Shown: positions 2,264-61,859 of the stretch, in pieces
Numbering within the stretch: position 1 is the stretch's first letter
Layout of the letters: every line of letters begins with the position of its first letter
Source: Patescibacteria group bacterium
GTDB lineage: Bacteria > Patescibacteriota > Patescibacteriia > UBA2196
Assembly: GCA_028748975.1 (NCBI GenBank)
Contig: JAQTPI010000001.1
Coordinates: forward strand, 354 to 64,353
Reading direction: 5' to 3'
Length of the DNA: 64,000 nucleotides
Position numbers and translations under genes: made by a program
The notes under the pieces: generated by a model
Told to the model about the DNA's origin: nothing
The model's input: the letters and a program-made list of their open reading frames with translations, nothing else
The model's database searches: none

Positions 2264-5179
2264 ATGTTTGAAAGAAAAATTTATTTCACCGGTATTCTTT
2301 TACTGACCGCGGTTTTTGTCGGCCAGTTTTTTTGCCACCCTGTTTTGGCCGCGCCGGCCTACAACCAGACCACCGGCGTCTACACTGATGATTTTGCCGA
2401 CAACACCGGCTTCACCACTCGAAGTTATGTCAATGTCAACGCCGGCAAACTCCAGTTGACTCATGACGATGACCAAACCGCTTTTACCGCGCCATATAAG
2501 ACTTCTGGTTACGCTTACAGCGCAAAAATTATCCCCACCAGCGTGGCCGAATGGGGAACCTTAAGTTTTGACGCGGTCATCCCCGAGGGCACAACTTTAA
2601 AAGTCCAAGTTTATGATTATTATGATGCCGATTATAACGCGCCCTATAGCGACATCTATTTGACGGGCAACAGTACCGGCTTTTCCACTTCTCCCATTGA
2701 TATCAGTGGCCTGCCAATTTATAGCAGTACCTTAACCGCTCGGGACAAAATAACTAGAATCAATATTAAAGTCACCATGACTACCACCAATACAGATACT
2801 CCGACTTTGGATAATCTGCAGCTTACTTGGACTACTTCGCAGGGCGACCTGACTGCCCAGCCGCTTTACAATTCACCTTGGCCGACAGAACTGCTGAATA
2901 ATCAGGGAACTCTTCGCTCGGCTTATGCCAACAGCAGCGTTTACCCGGCTTTTAAGTGGGCCAGGGATAAGAAAACCACCAATAATTCTCTTTATACCAA
3001 TTTAATTTATGATGGTAAAATTTATTATTCAGATTATTATGAAGATCCGTATCTATATGCCATTAATCGCGACACTGGCGTAGCGCTTTGGCAGAAACAA
3101 TATTTTCCTTTTGGCCACCCGTCCGTCAGTCAAAACGGCACTTTCTATGAGTGGGACATTTCCAACGATACTTTTATCGCCGTTGATTTGGCTGATGGTT
3201 CAGTCAAATGGACTTACGCGTCTTTGGCTGGTCATGGCAATGCCTACACTACCATCGGCGATGATGGTATGATCTATTTTATCACCGCGCCTTCCTCCAA
3301 TGCTAATTTTACGGTTTATGCCATGAATCCCGACGGTTCGGTTGAATGGACAAAAAATCTCGACCCCACCATCTATGATGATTTGATTGGTCGAATAATG
3401 ATCGGTCCCGATGATAATTTATATCTTGCGACCCCATCATCTAATGATTCAACAAATAAATACACCGGTCTTGGTCGACTCTATTCCCTCAGTCCCACCG
3501 ACGGCGCGGTTAATTGGTCTTATGAGGTGGGTGATGTTGGCGGCGAGGCCACCGCGATTGATGACGACGGTGTGATTTATGTTGGCATTGAAGACGTCAC
3601 TTCTTCTGGCCAGGCCAAAAAAATATATGCCTTCAATTCCGACGGCAGTGTCAAGTGGTCTCGAAATCATTTAAGTAGCAATGATATTGGCTATTACAAA
3701 TTTGCCCTCCGCAGTGATAATGTTTTGGTGGCGCACCGTTACAACGCCAGCTACGCTTCTTATTATCTTGATGGTTTTGATACGGCCGACGGCGACCTCT
3801 TATGGTCAATCCCGTCCAGTTATTACGGGAAAGAGTTTTTTTTAGATAAAAACAATGGTTTGTTTGAGGACTACAGCGACGACGCCGGCGTCGTCAGCGA
3901 AAAATATTATGACGCTGACAGAAATCTAAAATGGAAAATTTATTATAATTATTCCGTTGCCGACGGCACCAATAGCCAATATTATTATTTCGGTTTTTAT
4001 CGCGGGCCCATCATGGATGAGCGCGGCTGGCTTTACGGTGGTTTTAGCCGGTTTTATTATGATGCCAGCCGGACGGAAATCGTTGCCAATGAATTTCTCC
4101 AATATTTTGCCTTGGCCCCCTGGACCCTGACTAATTCCTCCAGTATCTCCGGTATTAAACTTGAGGGTGACACTTTGAATTTTTCCGCGACCACAAGCAT
4201 GCTTGAAACTAATCCGCTTTTTGGTGGCACCAATCAGGTCCAGGTGGTTCTTGACAATGGCGATAAGGTGCCCCTAAGCTACAGCTCCACCGCTGCCAAT
4301 GGCGACACAGTCTGGACAGGTTCTTATACTTTCCCTAAAAGCGGTCTTGGCTGTGGCACCCACTCCTACACCGTGGAAGCCAGCCAGACGTATCTTCAAA
4401 CCGATATCACCACGCATTTTGCTTCCGCTCCCACCAATTCCAATAACACCGGCATCACCGCTTCTGGAACTTTTACTTCCATTGGCTGTGGCGGTGGTTT
4501 TGAGCCCGAAGCCTATAATCCGCCCACCCCGCCCACTGGCGCTGGCTTTCAGGTCATTATTAACAATAATGATAAAACAACCAATGACAGAGAAGTTACC
4601 CTTAATTTAATTGGTGGTCCTGATACCGCCAAAATTTCTTTGTCTAATACTCTGGATTTTAAAAACGCGATTCAAGAAAATTATCAAGCTACAAAACAAT
4701 GGGATCTCTGTTCCAGTTCTGGCAATATTATCAAAAACACCTTCTGTCCTGCCGGAGAAAAAATAGTCTATGCCAAGTTCTTCACCAAGTACGGCGTGGC
4801 TACGAGCGCGGTCTTTGACGCCATCAGCTATCAGCCGATAAACACCCCAAGTGCGGCCCGCCCGCTTAACATCGGAAAAATATTAGGTGTCAATAATTCC
4901 AACACTTTTCTAAAAGACCTCAAACTCGGCCAAACCAATTTTGATGTCAAAAGATTGCAAATTTTTCTAAATTCCGATCCTGACACTCAAATTGCCAGAT
5001 CCGGTCCTGGTTCTCCCGGCCAGGAAACTTTCTTTTTTGGCTCTCTCACCAAACTTTCCGTGATTAAATTTCAAGAGAAATATGCCGAAGATATTTTAGT
5101 TCCTCTGGGTTTAAAGCAAGGCACTGGTTTTGTCAGTAAAAACACCAGACTGAAGATAAATGAGTTAATGGGGAAGTAA
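2264..5179 (+). CDS. large secreted PQQ-like beta-propeller repeat protein with C-terminal peptidoglycan-binding-like domain
   Basis: N-terminal signal peptide (MFERKIYFTGILLLTAVFVGQFFCHPVLAAP). Repeated 'DGSVKWT/DGSVEWT/DGAVNWS/DGDLLWS' blades typical of PQQ/BamB-like propellers. C-terminal 'VKRLQIFLN...FGSLTKLSVIKFQEKY' resembles a PG_binding_1 domain. Confidence 0.6.
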   Translation: MFERKIYFTGILLLTAVFVGQFFCHPVLAAPAYNQTTGVYTDDFADNTGFTTRSYVNVNAGKLQLTHDDDQTAFTAPYKTSGYAYSAKIIPTSVAEWGTLSFDAVIPEGTTLKVQVYDYYDADYNAPYSDIYLTGNSTGFSTSPIDISGLPIYSSTLTARDKITRINIKVTMTTTNTDTPTLDNLQLTWTTSQGDLTAQPLYNSPWPTELLNNQGTLRSAYANSSVYPAFKWARDKKTTNNSLYTNLIYDGKIYYSDYYEDPYLYAINRDTGVALWQKQYFPFGHPSVSQNGTFYEWDISNDTFIAVDLADGSVKWTYASLAGHGNAYTTIGDDGMIYFITAPSSNANFTVYAMNPDGSVEWTKNLDPTIYDDLIGRIMIGPDDNLYLATPSSNDSTNKYTGLGRLYSLSPTDGAVNWSYEVGDVGGEATAIDDDGVIYVGIEDVTSSGQAKKIYAFNSDGSVKWSRNHLSSNDIGYYKFALRSDNVLVAHRYNASYASYYLDGFDTADGDLLWSIPSSYYGKEFFLDKNNGLFEDYSDDAGVVSEKYYDADRNLKWKIYYNYSVADGTNSQYYYFGFYRGPIMDERGWLYGGFSRFYYDASRTEIVANEFLQYFALAPWTLTNSSSISGIKLEGDTLNFSATTSMLETNPLFGGTNQVQVVLDNGDKVPLSYSSTAANGDTVWTGSYTFPKSGLGCGTHSYTVEASQTYLQTDITTHFASAPTNSNNTGITASGTFTSIGCGGGFEPEAYNPPTPPTGAGFQVIINNNDKTTNDREVTLNLIGGPDTAKISLSNTLDFKNAIQENYQATKQWDLCSSSGNIIKNTFCPAGEKIVYAKFFTKYGVATSAVFDAISYQPINTPSAARPLNIGKILGVNNSNTFLKDLKLGQTNFDVKRLQIFLNSDPDTQIARSGPGSPGQETFFFGSLTKLSVIKFQEKYAEDILVPLGLKQGTGFVSKNTRLKINELMGK

Positions 5180-5284: not shown

Positions 5285-6703
5285 ATGAGAAACCTCCCCG
5301 CTAAAATTTTTAAGAATACTTTTACAGTTGCTTTAACCGTGATTGTTTCTTCGTTCCTTGTTGTTGGCGTGGTTGCGGCCTCAACCACCATCAGCACCAA
5401 CATTGTCACTGATGGCACCATTACAGCTGCTACTAAAATTGGCGCGGCTACCACTACCCCTTTTTATCCTTTGGATGTGAATGGCGATATTCATCAAATT
5501 GGCACGGCTAAGTTCTACCAGAACTATCTGCCCGTGTTTGTGGCTTCTTCCACCATTAAATCTGTTTCCGTCGGTACCGAGGCGGGGAAGGTTTTGGATA
5601 ATAATGGAATAGAAAATGTTTTTGTCGGCTATCAAGCCGGTTTAATCGCCACTTCCTCTGTTGAAAATACCGTCATTGGCACCCAAGCCATGGGCAATGC
5701 CTGGGGCGGTATTAAGGGTGCTCTTGGTTTTAATGTCGCTGTTGGTTATCAGGCGCTCTATTCCGATACCGTCGGTTATAATAATATCGCCGTTGGCTAT
5801 CAAGCCCTTTACGATAACACCGAAGGCGCTGATAATGTGGCTGTTGGTACTTGGTCCTTAGCCAATAATACAACCGGTAATTTTAATACGGCCATGGGGC
5901 GTGACAGTTTATATGTGAATACAACTGGCAGAGAAAATGTGGCTTTTGGCATGCAGACTTTAAACGCTAATACCATTGGTAACTATAATACTGCCATAGG
6001 AAAAGATACCCTAAGCGGCAGTGTCAATGGAAGCAACAATTCTGCCCTTGGTTTCCAGGCGCTTAATTGGATGACGGAGGGATCTTGGAACACGGCACTT
6101 GGTTCTTATGCTTTAGGGCAAACCTATACTAAATCTTTTGCCAACACCGCTGTTGGTTTTGAAGCTGGTCTGACCAATGGCAATAGTCCCTATTATTCCA
6201 ATGCCTCGAGTACCTGGATTGGTTACCAGGCTGGTAAAAATATTCGCACCGGCTCAAGCAACATTGCTCTTGGTTATAAAGCCGCTGAAGCTTTAACCAC
6301 CGGTTCTAATAACATCGTGATTGGTTATGACGTTGACGCCCGCGCCGTGGATGCCAGTAACACTTTAAATATTGGCAATATTTTATTTGGTGATAATTTA
6401 GTTGGCACTGACACCACCATTCGTGGCCGCATCGGCATTGCCACTTCCACTCCCTGGCGGACCAACTTAATGGATTATGGTTTTGTGGTGGCCACCTCCA
6501 CCTTGATTGATGCCAACGCTACCACCACCGGTAACTTTATTATTGGTGATGGTAACACCACCCCAACTTCCACTTTGGAAATTGGCGGTGGCACTGTGGC
6601 CGGCTGTCTAAAAATCAGAGATGCCAACGCCGACGCCTGGACCTATTGCTATACTGATGATGGTAATTTAAGATGCACCACCGAAGATGTTTGCAACAAA
6701 TAA
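5285..6703 (+). CDS. secreted repeat protein with tail-fibre-like 'NxAxG(x)QAL' beta-helical repeats and Cys-rich C-terminus
   Basis: N-terminal TM/signal segment. More than 15 tandem ~15-aa repeats ('NIAVGYQALYDNTEGADNVAVGTWSLANNTTGNFNTAMG...'). C-terminus 'CLKIRDANADAWTYCYTDDGNLRCTTEDVCNK'. Confidence 0.55.
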   Translation: MRNLPAKIFKNTFTVALTVIVSSFLVVGVVAASTTISTNIVTDGTITAATKIGAATTTPFYPLDVNGDIHQIGTAKFYQNYLPVFVASSTIKSVSVGTEAGKVLDNNGIENVFVGYQAGLIATSSVENTVIGTQAMGNAWGGIKGALGFNVAVGYQALYSDTVGYNNIAVGYQALYDNTEGADNVAVGTWSLANNTTGNFNTAMGRDSLYVNTTGRENVAFGMQTLNANTIGNYNTAIGKDTLSGSVNGSNNSALGFQALNWMTEGSWNTALGSYALGQTYTKSFANTAVGFEAGLTNGNSPYYSNASSTWIGYQAGKNIRTGSSNIALGYKAAEALTTGSNNIVIGYDVDARAVDASNTLNIGNILFGDNLVGTDTTIRGRIGIATSTPWRTNLMDYGFVVATSTLIDANATTTGNFIIGDGNTTPTSTLEIGGGTVAGCLKIRDANADAWTYCYTDDGNLRCTTEDVCNK

Positions 6704-14763: not shown

Positions 14764-15342
14764 ATGAACGTGGAAGCTGGAAAGAAGAAAAAAATCTTTT
14801 TGATTTGTCCGGTGCGCGAGGTTACCGATACGGAAAAAGAAGCCATTGCGCAATATGTTGCCGCTTTGAAAAAAGACGGTCACTCGGTTTATTGGCCGCT
14901 GACCGATACCAATCAAGATGACTCCGTCGGCCTGCGTATTTGCCAGGATAATCGTGCCGCCATCATCGCCGCTGACGAAATTCATATTTGGTGGAATGGC
15001 AAATCTCAAGGATCTATTTTTGATTTTGGCATGGCCTTTGGTTTAAATAAAAAAATAGTTCTTGTTAATTATGATGAAGTTCCAGCCACTCCGTATAAAA
15101 GTTTCAATAATGTCTTAAGAGAAATTGGTACCACCAAAGAAACTTTAACGCCCTTAGAAAAATTTAAGCTGGCGGCATTGTCGACCGAGGAAGTTACGGA
15201 CGATCAAGTTGAAGGGCTTTTTTTGGAATTTGAAGCTGGCTCCGAAGAAGAGTTATTGGAAGTAATCGAAATCGTGGAAATATATCGGCCAGTGCTTTGG
15301 CAAAAACTACAAAAAGAACATCGTGAGAGAATGGGTAAGTAA
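14764..15342 (+). CDS. nucleoside 2-deoxyribosyltransferase-like protein
   Basis: 'IFLICPVR...EIHIWWNGKSQGSIFDFGMAF' resembles the nucleoside deoxyribosyltransferase fold. RBS 'aggagga'. Confidence 0.45.
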   Translation: MNVEAGKKKKIFLICPVREVTDTEKEAIAQYVAALKKDGHSVYWPLTDTNQDDSVGLRICQDNRAAIIAADEIHIWWNGKSQGSIFDFGMAFGLNKKIVLVNYDEVPATPYKSFNNVLREIGTTKETLTPLEKFKLAALSTEEVTDDQVEGLFLEFEAGSEEELLEVIEIVEIYRPVLWQKLQKEHRERMGK

Positions 15343-17816: not shown

Positions 17817-18332
17817 ATGTCTCAGGCAACCTGGGATGATTATTTCATTATGCTGGCATTTGCGGTCGCTTCTAAATCAAAAGATACCAGCACAAAAGTG
17901 GGTGTGGTAATTGTCGGCCCCAATCATGGCATGCGCTCAACTGGTTATAATGATTTTCCAAGAAGAGTCAAAGATGATATTCCTGAGCGCCGCGTGCGTC
18001 CGGAAAAGTATCTTTGGACTGAACACACTGAACGTAATGCAATTTACAACGCGGCTAATGCTGGAATTGCCATCAATGGTTGCACCATGTATATTAATTG
18101 GGAACCATATCCTTGTCCTGATTGTGCCAGAGCCGTCATCCAGGCTGGTATTATAGAAGTGGTTGGTCCCGACAGGCCGTTCGTTAGCGTCGCTTCTGCC
18201 AACCGACAAAACTGGGAAGAGGGTTTCAAAAGAACCAAAGAAATGTTTGCTGAAGCTGGCATTGTTTCTCGTATCGTTCCCTTTACTCAAGACCGGATTT
18301 TATTTATGAACCATTTTAGCCCGTCATCATGA
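17817..18332 (+). CDS. dCMP deaminase (ComEB-type)
   Basis: 'HTERNAI' and 'PCPDCARAV' zinc-binding motifs. RBS 'aaaggagga'. Confidence 0.8.
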   Translation: MSQATWDDYFIMLAFAVASKSKDTSTKVGVVIVGPNHGMRSTGYNDFPRRVKDDIPERRVRPEKYLWTEHTERNAIYNAANAGIAINGCTMYINWEPYPCPDCARAVIQAGIIEVVGPDRPFVSVASANRQNWEEGFKRTKEMFAEAGIVSRIVPFTQDRILFMNHFSPSS

Positions 18333-57186: not shown

Positions 57187-58275
57187 ATGGAAAACCAAAC
57201 TTCCTATGTACGTCCCAGTTGGGATGAATATTTTCTGCAGATGCTGCCGGTGGTGGCCAGCCGGGCTACCTGCGACCGTGGCCGCAGTGGTTGTGTGATT
57301 GTGCGTGAAAAACGCATCATTTGCACCGGCTATGTGGGCGCGCCGCCGGGCCAGGCGCATTGTGATGAAGCCGGGCATTTAATATGGAAAACCATTGATG
57401 AGAATGGCGTGGAAACGGAACATTGCGTGCGTACAATTCACGCCGAGGCCAACGCCATCTATCAGGCGGCGCGTTTTGGACTGCCTCTTAAAGACGCCAC
57501 ACTTTATTGCCACATGGAACCCTGCTATAACTGCGCCATGGCTATTATTTCAGCCGGCATCAAACGTGTGGTTTGCGATAAACGTTATCATAAAGCCGAA
57601 CGCACCAGAAAATATTTCAACGATGCGGGGATTGAATTAGTTGTTTTACACAATGAAATAGAGGATTATGGTCAGAAGCCATCCAATAATTCCCAATTAA
57701 AGACGGTTTTTTTAGTTGGAATGTGTGGCGCTGGCAAAAGCGAAATAGCCGATTTTTTTATCAAGCATGGTTATGGTTATTTTCGTTTTGGTCAGATTAC
57801 TTTAGACGAAGTAAAAAGGCGTGGTTTGGAGCCGAACGAAGCAAATGAAAAACCAATTAGAGAGGGTTTTAGAAAAAAGTATGGCATGGCCGCTTTTGCT
57901 ATTTTGAATATGCCCAGAATTGATCAATTTTTAAATGAAGGAAAAAATGTCTTGGGTGATGGACTTTACAGCTGGTCAGAATATAAAGTTTTAAAAGAAA
58001 AATATGGCGACCAAATGATTGTCATCGCGGTTTACGCGGCGCCGAAAACTCGCTATGAACGCTTGGTTAATCGAGCGGAAAAATATAAAGACGATCCGAA
58101 TTTGAAATACCGTTCCTTTTCTTCCGCCGAAGCCAAAGCGCGCGATTACGCCGAACTGGAAAACATCGAAAAAGGCGGTCCGATTGCCATGGCGGATTAT
58201 ACCATTGTTAATGATGGGGACATGGAAAATTTGAAAAAGCAGATTGAGGAAGTTTGGGAGAAAATAAACCAGTAA
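57187..58275 (+). CDS. dCMP/cytidine deaminase domain fused to a P-loop nucleotide kinase domain
   Basis: N-terminal half has 'HAEANAI' and 'PCYNCAMAI'. C-terminal half has Walker A 'GMCGAGKS' and a small kinase-like fold. Confidence 0.6.
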   Translation: MENQTSYVRPSWDEYFLQMLPVVASRATCDRGRSGCVIVREKRIICTGYVGAPPGQAHCDEAGHLIWKTIDENGVETEHCVRTIHAEANAIYQAARFGLPLKDATLYCHMEPCYNCAMAIISAGIKRVVCDKRYHKAERTRKYFNDAGIELVVLHNEIEDYGQKPSNNSQLKTVFLVGMCGAGKSEIADFFIKHGYGYFRFGQITLDEVKRRGLEPNEANEKPIREGFRKKYGMAAFAILNMPRIDQFLNEGKNVLGDGLYSWSEYKVLKEKYGDQMIVIAVYAAPKTRYERLVNRAEKYKDDPNLKYRSFSSAEAKARDYAELENIEKGGPIAMADYTIVNDGDMENLKKQIEEVWEKINQ

Positions 58276-58650
58276 AATAATATGTCATTCCCGCGCAGGC
58301 CTGCCCGACTGAATGACTTCAGTCGTTCGGGCGGGCGGGAATCTTGAAAATAAAAAAGACACGCATCGCATTCGTTATTGTGAACGGGCCAATAAAGTGA
58401 ATGTAACGCGCGTCCGACCGCTTATTTATTAGTCGCAGCGGGTTTGATGTTGATTGGCGACAGCATTTTTTTACGAGCGCTATCCTCGAAGGGTTGTTTT
58501 CTTTGACTTTCCCTCAAAGTCGCGTGGCGCAGAAACCGGATTATGCCCGTCCATAACTTATCCAGTGTTATCAGTTTATATTGTTTCCAAAAAATATGCA
58601 AATTAAAATCAAAAAACTAATAAATAAAAAATAAACAATCAGGAGGAATT

Positions 58651-59229
58651 ATGAAAAATCAAGGCAAATTAATTGCCATTGCCGGGTGCATGTTTTCGGG
58701 TAAAAATCGGTTGGCTCACAACCTAGTTCAAAATTTTAAAGAACAAGGCTTAACCAGTTGTTTTTTTAAAGCTTCTTGTGATCAGCGCGGCGGCAAAAAT
58801 ATTATCATTCGTGGCTTAGGTCAGGTTTCCGCCACCATCATTGATGATCGTAACCCCGAGCAGATTTTGTCTCATGCCCAAAATGAAGTAATAGTGATTG
58901 ATGAGGGCCAGTTTTTTAATCAGAAAATTATCGGGGTTTTGGAAGAATTAAGAAAAAGAGGGAAAATTGTCGTTGTGATTGGCTTGGATACGAATTTTAA
59001 GGGCGAGCCCTTTCATCCGATGCCGGAAATCATCGCCATTGCCGACGAAAGATTTTTTCCTCAAATGGCTCGGTGCGCGGTCTGTGGCCAGGTCGCCTCG
59101 CGCACCCAAAAACTTAATCTCGACGGCACGCCCGCCGGCCACAATTCCCCCCTGATTGATTCTGGCGGCGAACACTCTGGCGACCGTTATGAACCGCGCT
59201 GCCGCAGCTGTTATCAACCACCCCAATGA
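58651..59229 (+). CDS. tdk: thymidine kinase
   Basis: 'GCMFSGKN', 'VIVIDEGQFF' and zinc ribbon 'CAVCGQVASRTQK'. RBS 'aggagga'. Confidence 0.85.
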   Translation: MKNQGKLIAIAGCMFSGKNRLAHNLVQNFKEQGLTSCFFKASCDQRGGKNIIIRGLGQVSATIIDDRNPEQILSHAQNEVIVIDEGQFFNQKIIGVLEELRKRGKIVVVIGLDTNFKGEPFHPMPEIIAIADERFFPQMARCAVCGQVASRTQKLNLDGTPAGHNSPLIDSGGEHSGDRYEPRCRSCYQPPQ

Positions 59230-59344
59230 GCAAAATAAAGGATGGATCACATTCCATCCTTTTTAATTTGACCGCCATTTTTTATTTTGTTAAGATATGG
59301 TGGACAACTGAACGTTTACAACTAAAACCAAACAGGAGGAAGGC

Positions 59345-60016
59345 ATGGAAAGAGGTATTTTTGTCGCGTTTGAGGGCATTGATTTGTGTGGCAAAAGCAC
59401 GCAAAAAAAAATGTTGGCCGAGAGATTAAGAAAGACCGATTGTTTCGTCCATGAAACTCGAGAACCAGGTAGTCCCCTGATCGAATTAACTATAAAAATA
59501 AGGCAGCTGATTAAAGAATATAACATGGATTCCCGATGTGAACTGGCGCTTTTTTTTGCCGATCGCGCGCAACACACCCAGTTGGTTATGGAATTATTGC
59601 GACGAACGGGAACCATCACTTTAACTGACCGGCAATGGGCTTCATCAGTGGCGTATCAAATTTTTGGTCGCGGGCTTTTTGGGGAAGAAAGGACGTTGGA
59701 AGAAAGGCTTGCTGACTTTTTTGTCTTTAATGATTTCTTTTCTCATGGGATTTATCCCCACCTCAATATTTTAATTGACGTGCCGGTGGAAGTGGCTCAG
59801 GCGCGTGTCCGTGACCCCAAAGCTAGAACTCGATTTGATAATGAACAGATCAATTTTCATCAGCGAGTTAGAAATGGTTATTTACAACTCGCTCAAAAAA
59901 GCACGAAGGGCGATTGGCTGGTTTTTGACGGCACCAAAAAAGCGGAAAAATTACACGAAGACGTTTATCAAAAATTCGTGGAATGGTTGAAAAACAAAAA
60001 AGAAGAAAAGGAGTAG
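59345..60016 (+). CDS. tmk: thymidylate kinase
   Basis: 'FVAFEGIDLCGKSTQ' P-loop and a 'DRQWASSVAYQ' lid region. Confidence 0.85.
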   Translation: MERGIFVAFEGIDLCGKSTQKKMLAERLRKTDCFVHETREPGSPLIELTIKIRQLIKEYNMDSRCELALFFADRAQHTQLVMELLRRTGTITLTDRQWASSVAYQIFGRGLFGEERTLEERLADFFVFNDFFSHGIYPHLNILIDVPVEVAQARVRDPKARTRFDNEQINFHQRVRNGYLQLAQKSTKGDWLVFDGTKKAEKLHEDVYQKFVEWLKNKKEEKE

Positions 60017-60019
60017 ATA

Positions 60020-61714
60020 ATGAAACAAGAATTACTTGCTTGTGGGCGGAGTTTTGTCCAAACGCCGCTGGAAATGGATTGGACCAGAAATGAAAAACTA
60101 GTTCTGGAGAGATTTTTTACCAATCTGACGGGAAGAATTTTTTGCATCTACAACGTTCTGCCGGCCAACATGATTGGCGTCCTTTTTGCCATGTATTCTC
60201 GCATGAAAAATTCACGCGGACTCCGCGGCACTTTTGTTGACAGTTTCCTACCGCAAGTTCTGGCGGCTTTTGTCCCTGAGTGTCAGGAAAGATTTGGCGG
60301 CAACGCAGTTATTTTTTTGAAGGAAAACAAGATAAAATCTCTGGATGACTTTATTGACTGTTCGAAAGAAACCAGGCAAGCCCTCGGAATTTTTCTATTA
60401 GGTATGAACACCAATCCGGATTATCTGGAAAAACTGTGCAACGCCGAAAAAATGAGGAAATTTTTATCAGACTGGCTGGACAAATGGGGTCACAACTCCA
60501 TTGGCCGTCCGGTCATGTTTTATATTTGCTGTGAGGAGATCTCCATCCGCGCGGCCAAATCACTTGAATGGTCGCGGCCCGGCTCCGGTTACATTGAATT
60601 GAGCACCAGATATGTCCGCATGTCAGATAAAGGCGTTTATCCCATTTGGAACGAACTCGGTCTTTTTGGCATCTCACCAAGCGATGTGCAAGCGGTAATT
60701 AATGAAAGTTTTCAAAAATATCAAGAATTGCAAGGAGAAAATTTTGATGGTCCGTTTCCAAATTTTTTAAGGGAGAAATACGCGGCATTAATGAATGAAG
60801 AGCAATTGAAGCAGGGAGTTATTGGCGAGTCGTGTGATGTTTTGGGAAACTTGCTTCCTACCGCCACTTTAACTTCAGTTGGCATTGGTGTTTCCGGCGA
60901 AGGCATACCGGACATGCTCCGGCATTTGCTTTTGGATAATTCGCCTGAAAATGAAGCCATTTCCGAATCAATCATTCAAGAATTGGGGAAAGTTGGTGGC
61001 GGGCAGTTTGTGCGCCATTTGGAAATTTCTGAATGGCAAAAAGCTGATTGGGGATATCTTGATAATGAACCAGTCACGCCAGTCATGTTTGCGCCAGATG
61101 AAGATTATGTAGAAAACTTGCTGTGGTATATTATGGGAAAGAAGATTTGTTTTTCTGACATTATTGTATGGCCGGAACGTATTTGGCACATGGAAAGTTT
61201 ACAACGAGGCTCACACGATAAGTTATTCGCCGATTTTGAAGCCGTGGCCGTGCACTTTGTGAACCAGATGACTTTCCGTGGTTGGCGCGATTTGCATCGC
61301 ATGAGTTTTTGCACGCATCACCGCGGATATTTAACGCCTGAAATCGGTTTTTACCGCTATGACAAACCACATCCGCAATTATTGTGTGACACTTTTAATA
61401 ACATTCATATCAAAAACAAATCAATTTATAAATTGATGAAATCAAAAGCCGTCCCCGACGAATTGATTGAATATCCGTTGGCATTGGGAAATTTGATTCA
61501 GTTCACGCTTTCGGCCAATCTTCGCGAGTGTGAGTTCATGAATTGGCAAAGAACCAAGCCCGACGTTAATCACGAGGTCAGGCGCGTATTTCTTTCTTTT
61601 GAACAGAGGTTGAGAGAAAAATATTGGTGGTGGAAAAAAATCTCGCGTGCCGACATGACACCCGGTTATGTCTTTGCTCGAGGAGGTAGTAACATTCCTT
61701 TGGGCAAAATATGA
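60020..61714 (+). CDS. large ThyX-like (flavin-dependent thymidylate synthase) tandem-domain protein, divergent
   Basis: 'RPGSGYIELSTRYV' and 'THHRGYLTPEIGFYRY' resemble the ThyX 'RHRxxSxxxxSxRY' motif in two halves. Sits in the tdk-tmk context. The assignment is an inference. Confidence 0.35.
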   Translation: MKQELLACGRSFVQTPLEMDWTRNEKLVLERFFTNLTGRIFCIYNVLPANMIGVLFAMYSRMKNSRGLRGTFVDSFLPQVLAAFVPECQERFGGNAVIFLKENKIKSLDDFIDCSKETRQALGIFLLGMNTNPDYLEKLCNAEKMRKFLSDWLDKWGHNSIGRPVMFYICCEEISIRAAKSLEWSRPGSGYIELSTRYVRMSDKGVYPIWNELGLFGISPSDVQAVINESFQKYQELQGENFDGPFPNFLREKYAALMNEEQLKQGVIGESCDVLGNLLPTATLTSVGIGVSGEGIPDMLRHLLLDNSPENEAISESIIQELGKVGGGQFVRHLEISEWQKADWGYLDNEPVTPVMFAPDEDYVENLLWYIMGKKICFSDIIVWPERIWHMESLQRGSHDKLFADFEAVAVHFVNQMTFRGWRDLHRMSFCTHHRGYLTPEIGFYRYDKPHPQLLCDTFNNIHIKNKSIYKLMKSKAVPDELIEYPLALGNLIQFTLSANLRECEFMNWQRTKPDVNHEVRRVFLSFEQRLREKYWWWKKISRADMTPGYVFARGGSNIPLGKI

Positions 61715-61859
61715 CAAGTTCAATCCCCGCGAACATTCAGTTCGCGGGCTTTTTTTTATTTTTTAGGCGTGATAAAATTAAAGTATAAATAATTGTCATT
61801 CCGACTGAAGCGAAGGGATCCTTCGACTTCGTCCTCGCTTCGCTCGGACTTCGCTCAGG

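What the first reader, a model, noticed from the sequence alone, without database searches (positions are those of the whole stretch)
57187..61714. Thymidylate island with a deaminase-kinase fusion and an oversized, motif-divergent ThyX-like protein
Four consecutive co-directional genes: a dCMP deaminase fused to a P-loop kinase (57187), thymidine kinase, thymidylate kinase, and a 564-aa protein (60020). The two halves of the last protein each carry a degenerate version of the ThyX 'RHRxxSxxxxSxRY' motif ('RPGSGYIELSTRYV' and 'THHRGYLTPEIGFYRY'). A second, conventional dCMP deaminase exists at 17817. The deaminase-kinase fusion and the altered catalytic motif resemble phage pyrimidine hypermodification pathways as much as housekeeping dTMP synthesis. 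If the protein is a genuine ThyX, it is an unusual tandem form. If not, dTMP supply here relies on salvage (tdk) plus an unknown enzyme.
Basis: inference. Interest (0 to 1): 0.65.

Follow-up and report, generated by a model that had tools for sequence, protein, structure and literature searches.

The report
Thymidylate operon with tandem-duplicated ThyX
This is an ordinary chromosomal gene cluster for making the DNA building block dTMP in an uncultured ultra-small (CPR) bacterium; its thymidylate synthase is a double-domain ThyX, a common but unstudied form, and this lineage has also lost the enzyme's signature flavin-binding "RHR" residues.

Summary
Four co-directional genes encode a dCMP deaminase fused to a P-loop kinase, thymidine kinase, dTMP kinase and a 564-aa ThyX-like protein.

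The 564-aa protein is a real tandem ThyX. The N half passes Pfam Thy1. The C half alone, modelled at pLDDT 93, matches ThyX crystal structures along its whole length.

The tandem form is not rare. It aligns end to end (E 3e-66) with a ~540-aa double-ThyX class that has at least 8000 database clusters, and no member has a solved structure.

In that class the ThyX motif is split. The N half keeps E..S.RY, and the C half keeps RHR plus the R174 equivalent. The CPR subfamily goes further: only the first Arg of RHR survives (R427, then Q/M and G/S in 116/116 sequences).

The residues matching S88, R90, R78 and R174 are invariant, and Y91 is nearly so. tmk sits within ~3 kb of the gene in at least 14 of 45 related genomes. 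In one relative a ThyA-Tmk fusion fills the same slot.

I therefore read it as a working thymidylate synthase with one composite site per chain. That site architecture is inferred, not shown.

The phage-hypermodification idea is not supported. The window is housekeeping chromosome.

It is a new variant of a known kind, of moderate interest.

The parts
57187..58275 (+). dCMP deaminase fused to a P-loop kinase (362 aa). The deaminase covers residues ~9-155 and has HAE and PCxxC zinc/catalytic motifs. The kinase covers residues ~171-360 and has the Walker A motif GMCGAGKS.
   Evidence: Pfam hits. PDB sequence matches: dCMP deaminase 2hvv (E 9e-25) and Sulfolobus SSO1041 / UPF0200 'AdkA-like' 3lw7 (E 1.2e-14, full length). 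Motifs read from the translation. The identical ORF occurs in an independent Logan assembly.
58651..59229 (+). Thymidine kinase (tdk, 192 aa)
   Evidence: Pfam TK 106.6 bits. An AGGAGG ribosome-binding site lies just upstream (sequence).
59237..59262 (+). 10-bp hairpin just after the tdk stop; a possible weak terminator or attenuator
   Evidence: Consensus scan. Function not tested.
59345..60016 (+). dTMP kinase (tmk, 223 aa). Its stop codon lies 3 nt before the thyX start.
   Evidence: TIGR00041 119.6 bits, above the 83.25 cut-off. Pfam hit.
60020..61021 (+). N-terminal ThyX domain of the tandem ThyX (residues 1-334). It includes a CPR-specific insertion of ~45 aa at residues ~83-140.
   Evidence: Pfam Thy1 on residues 137-285. 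hhalign against the ~540-aa class and against T. maritima ThyX.
60569..60613 (+). N-half remnant of the ThyX motif, W184-S-R186-P-G-S-G-Y-I-E193-L-S195-T-R197-Y198. It keeps the equivalents of Tm E86, S88, R90 and Y91. RHR is reduced to the single R186.
   Evidence: HMMER alignment to T. maritima ThyX. R186, S195 and R197 are 116/116; E193 is 114/116; Y198 is Y or F in 115/116.
61022..61714 (+). C-terminal ThyX domain of the tandem ThyX (residues 335-564, plus the stop codon)
   Evidence: AF2 model of this half alone has pLDDT 92.8. Foldseek matches ThyX structures over 214-225 of 230 columns, E 1e-9 to 1e-7, TM ~0.62-0.67.
61286..61324 (+). C-half counterpart of the RHR region, R423-D-L-H-R427-M-S-F-C-T-H433-H-R435. 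R423 corresponds to Tm R74 and R427 to Tm R78. H79 and R80 are replaced. H433 and R435 are invariant and specific to the CPR subfamily.
   Evidence: hhalign of A1 against A3. Motif scan of the ~540-aa class, 'RD[LI]QRHR'. Column counts.
61550..61552 (+). Codon of R511, the equivalent of T. maritima R174, the residue that activates dUMP
   Evidence: Alignments. R511 is 116/116. The role of R174 is described in PMC8316439.
61726..61758 (+). Intrinsic-terminator-like hairpin (9 bp, 7 G-C) followed by a T8 run, 12 nt after the thyX stop. It probably marks the end of the tmk-thyX transcription unit.
17817..18332 (+). Second, stand-alone dCMP/CMP-type deaminase paralogue (171 aa)
   Evidence: Pfam 67.3 bits. 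32% identity to the fused deaminase.

Best explanation
The region is the chromosomal dTMP/dTTP supply cluster of a Patescibacteria (CPR) bacterium, closest to Komeilibacteria.

The proposed flow is as follows. dCMP is deaminated to dUMP by the deaminase domain. The fused kinase, of unknown specificity, most likely feeds or drains this step. dUMP is methylated to dTMP by the 564-aa enzyme. Salvaged thymidine enters through Tdk. Tmk then makes dTDP.

The 564-aa enzyme is a tandem-duplicated flavin-dependent thymidylate synthase. It has two ThyX folds in one chain, so a homodimer would mimic the canonical homotetramer.

The two halves have divided the roles that three identical subunits play in a canonical active site. 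The C half supplies the 'subunit A' residues, R427 (Tm R78) and R511 (Tm R174). The N half supplies the dUMP loop, K180, E193, S195, R197 and Y198 (Tm R74, E86, S88, R90, Y91). The N half probably also supplies the 'subunit B' residues H158 and S160. This gives one composite active site per chain and two per dimer.

Shown here: the fold of both halves, homology, residue conservation and gene context.

Inferred: the dimer, the number of sites, and the activity.
For: Fold and family:
- Pfam Thy1 is above its gathering score on the N half.
- The full-length AF2 model has pLDDT 93.6 and pTM 0.92 and hits ThyX structures at probability 1.0.
- The C half alone matches ThyX over its whole length.
- T. 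maritima ThyX aligns to the N and C halves of the ~540-aa class at E 3e-10 and 2e-14.
- The CPR family aligns to that class over 497 columns at E 3e-66.
- Foldseek finds full-length two-domain matches to predicted phage proteins, including one from Microcystis phage LMM01.

Catalytic residues:
- S88, R90 and Y91 assist methylene transfer, and R174 activates dUMP (PMC8316439).
- The subunit assignment is A = RHR + Arg199(Mtb), B = Ser71 + Arg190, C = Ser105/Arg107/Tyr108 (PMC6514825).
- Their equivalents S195, R197, R427 and R511 are 116/116. Y198 is 106 Y plus 9 F.

Context:
- tmk lies within ~3 kb of the long thyX in at least 14 of 45 GTDB CPR loci, and directly beside it in 13.
- Falkowbacteria have secE-nusG-rplK-rplA-kinase-x-tmk-thyX-gatB.
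- In L054/L055 the same slot, after rplA and a deaminase-kinase fusion, holds a ThyA+pterin-binding+Tmk fusion. That is a non-orthologous displacement of the thymidylate synthase.
- The tmk stop and the thyX start are 3 nt apart, and a terminator-like hairpin follows thyX.
Against: - The canonical contiguous motif RHRxxSxxxxSxRY is absent from both halves.
- In the CPR subfamily the His and second Arg of RHR, which hydrogen-bond the FAD phosphates and ribityl (PMC6514825), are replaced in every sequence: Q/M at 428 and G/Q/S/T at 429.
- The N-half equivalent of the FAD-binding Arg (Tm R165) is an invariant Glu, E294. Flavin binding must therefore differ from known ThyX, or could be lost.
- No activity, cofactor or oligomer data exist. 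No tandem ThyX has a solved structure.
- I could not inspect model coordinates, so the packing of the two halves and the composite site are inferred from sequence alone.
Only parts of it were checked against HMMER printouts.
- Folate and FAD supply in this organism is unknown.
Confidence: 0.72

Rival explanations
1. The long ThyX-like protein binds its flavin in a remodelled way, or uses a different flavin form (for example FMN rather than FAD). The three FAD-phosphate/ribityl ligands of canonical ThyX are all gone, and new invariant residues (H433, R435, E294) have appeared. It would still make dTMP, but with altered cofactor chemistry. This refines the best explanation rather than excluding it.
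For: H79 and R80 are replaced in both halves, and the N-half R165 equivalent is an invariant Glu, in 116/116 sequences. The ~540-aa tandem class keeps RHR in its C half (R invariant, H and R at 90% or more) and its consensus keeps NAR in its N half. The roles of these residues in FAD binding are given in PMC6514825.
Against: The C half keeps N500 (116/116) and R502 (75/116) at the N163/R165 positions. The fold is intact. No cofactor evidence of any kind is available. Relocating ligands within a pocket is common and need not change the cofactor.
Confidence: 0.18
2. The 564-aa protein is a catalytically dead ThyX relic, or a ThyX-fold protein with another role. In that case dTMP comes only from thymidine salvage through Tdk and a deoxyribosyltransferase-like protein.
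For: The signature motif is degenerate in both halves. tdk is present in the cluster. A nucleoside 2-deoxyribosyltransferase-like gene lies at 14764-15342. CPR bacteria are generally salvage-dependent (general knowledge).
Against: About 50 columns are invariant across 116 sequences that are only 44-56% identical to the window protein, and they include the S88, R90, R78 and R174 equivalents. The Y91 equivalent is Y or F in 115/116. The gene is conserved next to tmk. A ThyA fusion occupies the same slot in a relative. A dCMP deaminase that makes dUMP would have no consumer.
Confidence: 0.08
3. The deaminase-kinase fusion is an AvcD/DCD-like anti-phage deoxycytidylate deaminase rather than a housekeeping enzyme.
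For: There are weak hits of both halves to NF041025 'anti-phage dCTP deaminase' (73.5 bits for the whole protein; 24 bits for the kinase half). PADLOC 'dCTPase' scores 95.8 bits on the deaminase core. AvcD-type proteins also pair a P-loop domain with a deaminase domain (from memory).
Against: The score is far below the NCBIfam cut-off (73.5 against 400). The domain order here is deaminase then kinase, the reverse of that model. The PADLOC match covers only ~60 residues of the deaminase core. The stand-alone deaminase at 17817 hits the same models. The gene sits in a conserved tmk/thyX or ThyA cluster after rplA.
Confidence: 0.04
4. The cluster is a phage-derived pyrimidine hypermodification module.
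For: Phages do encode dCMP deaminases, dNMP kinases and ThyX (PHROG hits for three of the four proteins). Foldseek finds full-length two-domain matches to predicted phage proteins.
Against: There are no phage structural, integrase or replication genes in the ORFs scanned, which are instead aminoacyl-tRNA synthetases, gyrB, ribosomal proteins, nusG and similar. The GC content is not distinct from the rest of the window. The long ThyX has no PHROG hit. All 45 related GTDB loci are uncultured-bacterium MAGs, mostly labelled Patescibacteria-group. The order rplA-...-tmk-thyX-gatB is conserved. No hydroxymethylase, glycosyl- or amino-transferase is adjacent.
Confidence: 0.02

Closest known systems
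Canonical homotetrameric ThyX / FDTS (e.g. T. maritima TM0449, PDB 1O26; M. tuberculosis 3GWC)
   Same: The fold is the same in both halves. Pfam Thy1 is matched. The equivalents of R78, E86, S88, R90, Y91, N163 and R174 are present and invariant or nearly invariant. The enzyme sits in the same pathway position, next to tmk.
   Different: There are two domains in one 564-aa chain instead of one domain of ~220-260 aa. No single domain has the full RHRxxSxxxxSxRY motif. The catalytic set is split between the halves. H79 and R80 are absent altogether. At most two sites are expected per pseudo-tetramer instead of four (inferred).
The ~540-aa duplicated ThyX class, annotated 'FAD-dependent thymidylate synthase' in Acidimicrobiia, Actinomycetota, Parabacteroides and Woesearchaeota. 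A duplicated ThyX was noted in Chloroflexi as 'not characterized' (PMC3224940). Chlamydia ThyX, ~529 aa, may belong here; that is from memory and was not tested.
   Same: The two families align end to end (E 3e-66, 497 columns). Both have the N-half '...R..SY.E.STRY' and a C half that carries the R78 and R174 equivalents.
   Different: The CPR subfamily has a ~45-aa insertion in the N half. Its C-half RHR has become R-Q/M-G/S. The N-half R147, N163 and R165 equivalents have become G276, S292 and E294. New invariant residues H433 and R435 have appeared. Scores fall from over 300 bits within the CPR family to ~130-170 bits for the ~540-aa class.
Kinase-deaminase fusion proteins (~340-370 aa, AAA_18 + dCMP_cyt_deam_1) of CPR bacteria, DPANN archaea and Bacteroidales
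   Same: The two domains are the same, at 50-63% identity per domain.
   Different: The domain order is permuted. Of the 120 best homologues, 93 are kinase-deaminase, 25 are kinase only and only 2 are deaminase-kinase like the window. In L034 the two are separate overlapping genes in the window's order, so the window's fusion is probably an independent, recent event.
Sulfolobus SSO1041 / UPF0200 'AdkA-like' protein (PDB 3LW7, 3H0K)
   Same: The kinase half aligns over its full length at E 1.2e-14.
   Different: SSO1041 is a stand-alone archaeal protein. Its substrate is not named in the PDB entries, and nothing was found in the paper library.

Membership tests
ThyX / Thy1 flavin-dependent thymidylate synthase (PF02511) | Matches the Pfam Thy1 profile above its gathering score | tested here: met
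   46.3 bits against 24.8, on residues 137-285. NCBIfam has no hit.
ThyX / Thy1 flavin-dependent thymidylate synthase (PF02511) | [quoted passage not shown] | tested here: met
   Foldseek probability 1.0 to T. maritima and T. thermophilus ThyX for the full-length model and for the C half alone over 214-225 of 230 columns. The N half is covered by Pfam and hhalign.
ThyX / Thy1 flavin-dependent thymidylate synthase (PF02511) | Contiguous ThyX motif RHRxxSxxxxSxRY within one domain | tested here: not met
   The N half has R-P-G...E.S.RY. The C half has R-M-S and no S.RY. This holds across the family.
ThyX / Thy1 flavin-dependent thymidylate synthase (PF02511) | Catalytic residues equivalent to Tm R78, S88, R90, Y91 and R174 are present | tested here: met
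   R427, S195, R197 and R511 are 116/116. Y198 is 106 Y plus 9 F of 116. They are distributed over the two halves.
ThyX / Thy1 flavin-dependent thymidylate synthase (PF02511) | FAD-phosphate ligands (Tm H79, R80, R165) | tested here: not met
   Position 428 is Q or M. Position 429 is G, Q, S or T. The N half has P187 and G188. The N-half R165 equivalent is E294 (116/116). The C-half R502 is Arg in only 75/116.
ThyX / Thy1 flavin-dependent thymidylate synthase (PF02511) | Flavin-, NADPH- and CH2-THF-dependent conversion of dUMP to dTMP; tetrameric assembly with sites at three-subunit interfaces | not testable with these tools
   This needs biochemistry, or a multimer model with coordinates.
Tandem (duplicated) ThyX class, ~540 aa | Two ThyX domains in one chain, alignable with the class from end to end | tested here: met
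   hhalign probability 100, E 3.4e-66, 497 columns. Foldseek finds full-length matches to two-domain predicted phage proteins.
Tandem (duplicated) ThyX class, ~540 aa | Split motif: N half E.STRY and C half RD[LI]QRHR | tested here: inconclusive
   The N-half part is met (E193, S195, T196, R197, Y198). The C half keeps RDL.R, but the H and R are replaced.
dCMP/CMP deaminase (PF00383) | Profile match plus the H-x-E and P-C-x-x-C zinc/catalytic motifs | tested here: met
   86.4 bits. 'HAE' and 'PCYNC' are seen in the translation. The closest PDB entry is dCMP deaminase 2hvv at E 9e-25.
Anti-phage dCTP deaminase (NF041025, AvcD/DCD-like) | Score above the curated cut-off, with the kinase-like domain N-terminal to the deaminase | tested here: not met
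   73.5 bits against a cut-off of 400. The domain order is reversed. The PADLOC hit is limited to the deaminase core.
Thymidine kinase (PF00265) and dTMP kinase (TIGR00041) | Profile match above the cut-off, with a P-loop | tested here: met
   TK 106.6 bits. DTMP_kinase 119.6 bits against 83.25.
Phage pyrimidine hypermodification cluster | Phage genomic context, plus a pyrimidine hydroxymethylase and downstream kinase/transferase genes | tested here: not met
   The context is housekeeping. The related loci are CPR chromosomes. The ThyX has no PHROG hit. No transferase genes are adjacent.

The most novel reading that the evidence does not exclude
The CPR long ThyX would be a thymidylate synthase that has dispensed with the whole canonical FAD-phosphate-binding triad: the His and second Arg of RHR, and the R165-type Arg, which is replaced by an invariant Glu. 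It would hold or use its flavin in a new way, perhaps a different flavin form, through H433, R435 and E294. It would work as a half-of-sites pseudo-tetramer in which the N and C domains have permanently divided the three subunit roles.
Probability: 0.18. Interest if true: 0.6.

Novelty: new variant of a known kind. Interest (0 to 1): 0.42.

Why it matters
ThyX is an antibiotic target, and its chemistry is still debated. All structural and mechanistic work has used single-domain homotetramers.

The double-domain class is very common, with at least 8000 clusters, yet it has no solved structure. I found nothing in the literature beyond a 2009 remark that it is uncharacterised.

Its split motif is a natural version of mixed-mutant heterotetramer experiments. 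It shows directly which residues act together from different subunits.

The CPR branch also removes the RHR residues that are regarded as universally conserved FAD ligands. It would therefore test which contacts are truly essential.

For CPR biology, the cluster indicates that these reduced genomes keep both a de novo route to dTMP (dCMP to dUMP to dTMP) and a salvage route. The thymidylate synthase slot can be filled by either ThyX or ThyA.

Tried and rejected
- Single-sequence search of the 564-aa protein against the PDB found nothing at E up to 1. Profiles were needed.
- hhalign of the N half against the C half of the CPR family gave no significant internal repeat (E 0.054, wrong register). 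The duplication is visible only through structure and through the ~540-aa class.
- The AFDB Foldseek library was unavailable.
- Model coordinates cannot be read in the sandbox. I could not measure how the halves pack, or how far S195/R197 lie from R427/R511.
- Literature searches for CPR or Patescibacteria ThyX, tandem or duplicated ThyX, and UPF0200/SSO1041 gave only the 2009 Chloroflexi remark.
- The Chlamydia ThyX paper (JBC 2005) and Leduc et al. 2004 are not held. My recollection that Chlamydia ThyX is ~529 aa and tandem therefore stays untested.
- Rfam and tRNA scans of the window found nothing.
- The 375-nt gap between the fusion gene and tdk folds no better than shuffled sequence (z = -1.4).
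- Pfam on the kinase half alone gave only generic P-loop families, so its substrate remains unknown.
- The phage-hypermodification and antiphage-deaminase readings were considered and rejected. The reasons are given under the rival explanations.

Full report
**Observation**

- 57187-58275 (362 aa) has Pfam dCMP_cyt_deam_1 on residues 11-130 (E 1.4e-24) and AAA_18 on residues 174-303 (E 2.4e-10).
- 58651-59229 is a thymidine kinase (E 1.7e-30).
- 59345-60016 is a dTMP kinase (Pfam E 1.5e-29). It scores 119.6 bits against TIGR00041, above the 83.25 cut-off.
- 60020-61714 (564 aa) passes Pfam Thy1 (46.3 bits against 24.8), but only on residues 137-285.

The flanking genes are a YkuD/FG-GAP protein upstream and gatB downstream. 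The second deaminase at 17817-18332 is real and is 32% identical to the fused one.

**What the window is**

I scanned 46 ORFs with Pfam in total: 40 across the rest of the window and six in the finding region and its flanks. This covered all but two of those of 130 aa or more (2264-5179 and 5285-6703 were not scanned).
- They encode AspRS, IleRS-type, GlyRS/ProRS-type, MetRS and PheRS alpha and beta.
- They also encode GyrB, NusG, L11, L1, ScpA/B, RecO, Tgt, RsmI-like, TatD, RmuC and an AddA-like helicase-nuclease.
- No ThyA, short ThyX, DHFR or SHMT was found. No phage genes were found.

The best homologues of the 564-aa protein are all from Patescibacteria/CPR metagenome-assembled genomes, including Komeilibacteria, Falkowbacteria, Niyogibacteria and Giovannonibacteria. 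This is a CPR chromosome, not a mobile element. GC content is flat across the region.

**The 564-aa protein is a tandem ThyX**

- An alignment of 116 full-length CPR homologues (A1, 44-56% identical to the window protein) gave an AlphaFold model with pLDDT 93.6 and pTM 0.92. The model hits T. maritima ThyX structures at probability 1.0.
- The C half alone (residues 335-564, alignment A2, pLDDT 92.8) matches ThyX structures over 214-225 of its 230 columns. E is 1e-9 to 1e-7 and TM is ~0.62-0.67.
- The N half carries the Pfam hit.
- The two halves are no longer recognisably similar to each other in sequence (hhalign E 0.054).

**The tandem form is common, not exceptional**

- A profile search of 1.84 billion representatives found about 60 high-scoring CPR clusters. 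Below them lies a second tier of 460-740-aa proteins that match both halves at E 1e-45 to 1e-33. In total 2266 representatives had E up to 1e-3.
- An alignment of 78 second-tier proteins (A3) retrieved at least 8000 clusters at E up to 1e-10, typically ~540 aa. Sources name them 'FAD-dependent thymidylate synthase' in Acidimicrobiia, Actinomycetota and Parabacteroides distasonis and in Woesearchaeota.
- A1 and A3 align over 497 columns at E 3.4e-66.
- Foldseek against predicted viral structures gives full-length two-domain matches, including one to Microcystis phage LMM01.
- Valas and Bourne (PMC3224940) noted in 2009 that Chloroflexi ThyX 'contains a domain duplication' and 'has not been characterized'.
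- No tandem ThyX is in the PDB. All matches are chains of 216-270 aa.
- I recall that Chlamydia ThyX is ~529 aa. I could not test whether it belongs to this class.

**The motif is split between the halves**

In the ~540-aa class:
- The N half carries '...R-[LI]-x-S-[YF]-x-E-[KQ]-S-T-R-Y'. The S.RY half is intact and RHR is reduced to one Arg.
- The C half carries 'R-D-[LI]-Q-R-H-R'. RHR is intact and S.RY is gone.

T. maritima ThyX aligns to the N half at E 3e-10 and to the C half at E 2e-14.

Through these alignments, and HMMER alignments to PDB chains, the window residues map as follows.

| T. maritima residue | N half of window protein | C half of window protein |
|---|---|---|
| H53 | H158 | not mapped |
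| T55 (Mtb Ser71) | S160 | not mapped |
| E58 | not mapped | E407 |
| R74 | K180 | R423 |
| R78 | single R186 (stands for R78/R80) | R427 |
| H79 | P187 | M428 |
| R80 | G188 | S429 |
| E86 | E193 | lost |
| S88 | S195 | lost |
| R90 | R197 | lost |
| Y91 | Y198 | lost |
| E144 | D273 | not mapped |
| R147 | G276 | not mapped |
| N163 | S292 | N500 |
| R165 | E294 | R502 |
| R174 | H302 | R511 |

Column counts over the 116 sequences:
- Invariant (116/116): H158, S160, K180, R186, S195, R197, R423, R427, H433, R435, N500 and R511.
- Y198 is Y in 106 and F in 9.
- Position 428 is only Q or M. Position 429 is only G, Q, S or T.
- E294 is invariant. R502 is Arg in 75/116.

The second, 'THHRGY...FYRY', is six residues out of register with the true RHR counterpart, although it contains the invariant H433 and R435.

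**Mechanistic reading (inference)**

In canonical ThyX each site is built from three subunits (PMC6514825).
- Subunit A gives RHR and Arg199(Mtb), which is Tm R174.
- Subunit B gives Ser71 and Arg190, which is Tm R165.
- Subunit C gives Arg87, Ser105, Arg107 and Tyr108, of which the last three are Tm S88, R90 and Y91.

S88, R90 and Y91 assist methylene transfer, and R174 activates dUMP (PMC8316439).

The tandem proteins keep the A-role residues only in the C half. They keep the C-role residues, and in the ~540-aa class the B-role residues, only in the N half. The simplest model is a homodimer that mimics the 222 tetramer with two live sites. Each site would use one C half and both N halves.

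The CPR subfamily has additionally replaced all three FAD-phosphate/ribityl ligands: H79 and R80 in the C half, and the R165 equivalent in the N half, which is now Glu. It has gained invariant H433 and R435. Flavin binding must therefore be remodelled. I could not inspect coordinates, so the packing and the number of sites are not shown.

**Gene context supports a real thymidylate synthase**

- tmk lies within ~3 kb of the long thyX in at least 14 of 45 GTDB CPR loci, and directly beside it in 13. tdk is adjacent in two loci. gatB lies downstream in seven.
- A Falkowbacteria contig has secE-nusG-rplK-rplA, then a stand-alone AAA_18 kinase, a 186-aa ORF, tmk, the long thyX and gatB. This mirrors the window's nusG-rplK-rplA ... 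fusion-tdk-tmk-thyX-gatB.
- In L054/L055 the slot after rplA and a deaminase-kinase fusion is filled by a 690-aa ThyA + pterin-binding (DUF4346) + Tmk fusion. ThyA and the long ThyX therefore replace one another in the same cluster.
- In the window, the tmk stop and the thyX start are 3 nt apart. A strong terminator-like hairpin (61726-61748, then T8) follows thyX.

**The deaminase-kinase fusion**

- The deaminase half has the HAE and PCxxC motifs. It is closest to the S. mutans dCMP deaminase 2hvv (E 9e-25).
- The kinase half matches Sulfolobus SSO1041 (UPF0200, 'AdkA-like') over its full length at E 1.2e-14. In Pfam it matches only generic P-loop families. Its substrate is unknown.
- The pairing of the two domains is widespread in CPR bacteria, DPANN archaea and Bacteroidales, but usually in the opposite order. 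Of the 120 best homologues, 93 are kinase-deaminase, 25 are kinase only and 2 are deaminase-kinase.
- In L034 the deaminase and kinase are separate, overlapping genes in the window's order, followed by tmk and thyX. The window's fusion is thus a probable independent fusion of neighbouring genes.
- The identical ORF occurs in an independent assembly.
- Weak similarity to anti-phage dCTP deaminase models is far below the cut-off and limited to generic domain cores. It scores 73.5 bits against 400 in NCBIfam and matches PADLOC only on the deaminase core. The stand-alone deaminase hits the same models.

**Verdict**

The 'tandem ThyX' reading is supported. The claims of rarity and of a link to phage hypermodification are not.

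The cluster is an ordinary, conserved CPR thymidylate operon. What is of real interest is the enzyme class. It is a very common double-domain ThyX that has not been studied structurally or, as far as I could find, biochemically, and its motif is split between the domains. This CPR branch has also lost the RHR flavin ligands entirely.

I rate it a new variant of a known kind, with interest about 0.4.

Noticed in passing
L054:2436-4508 and L055:2428-4500: A 690-aa single protein combines ThyA (PF00303), a pterin-binding DUF4346 domain and thymidylate kinase. It lies directly after a deaminase-kinase fusion and rplA in a relative. It is a triple fusion occupying the slot that the long ThyX plus Tmk hold in the window.
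   Followed up: partly
window:14764-15342 (+): A 192-aa protein scores just above the Pfam gathering score for nucleoside 2-deoxyribosyltransferase (30.4 bits against 28.8). It has no NCBIfam hit. It is a possible extra nucleoside-salvage enzyme.
   Followed up: partly
window:57187-58275 compared with homologues P0121-P0240: The domain order is permuted. Most homologous fusions are kinase-deaminase (93 of 120). The window's deaminase-kinase order is rare (2 of 120), which implies independent fusion events in both orders.
   Followed up: yes
window:58288-58340 (+): A long G+C-rich hairpin (CCCGCGCAGGCCUGCCCGACUGAA...GGGCGGGCGGG) lies right after the stop of the fusion gene. It is followed by an A-rich rather than a T-rich tract. 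The 375-nt gap before tdk holds no ORF of 60 aa or more and no Rfam match.
   Followed up: partly
window:1-64000: There are no tRNA genes and no Rfam family at gathering score in 64 kb. That includes the region upstream of rplK-rplA, where a ribosomal-protein leader might be expected.
   Followed up: partly
L050:6001-11287 (Parabacteroides distasonis): The ~540-aa tandem ThyX of a Bacteroidota genome is followed by an AAA ATPase, a HIT/DcpS-like protein, a PRA-PH (MazG-like) protein and DHFR. A ThyX-type synthase next to DHFR is an unusual pairing.
   Followed up: no
window:21147-21590 (+): A stand-alone PD-(D/E)XK nuclease family protein (PDDEXK_3, E 2.5e-25) lies between a class II aminoacyl-tRNA synthetase and an M16 peptidase.
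   Followed up: no
window:2264-6703 (+): Two large, probably secreted or surface proteins (971 and 472 aa) have repetitive, low-complexity sequence. They were not scanned against any library.
   Followed up: no
BFVD entries A0A6B7EUB9 and A0A7D4 (Microcystis phage LMM01): Predicted phage proteins of 461-491 aa match the whole two-domain model (484-520 columns, E ~1e-12). Tandem ThyX-like proteins therefore also occur in phages.
   Followed up: no
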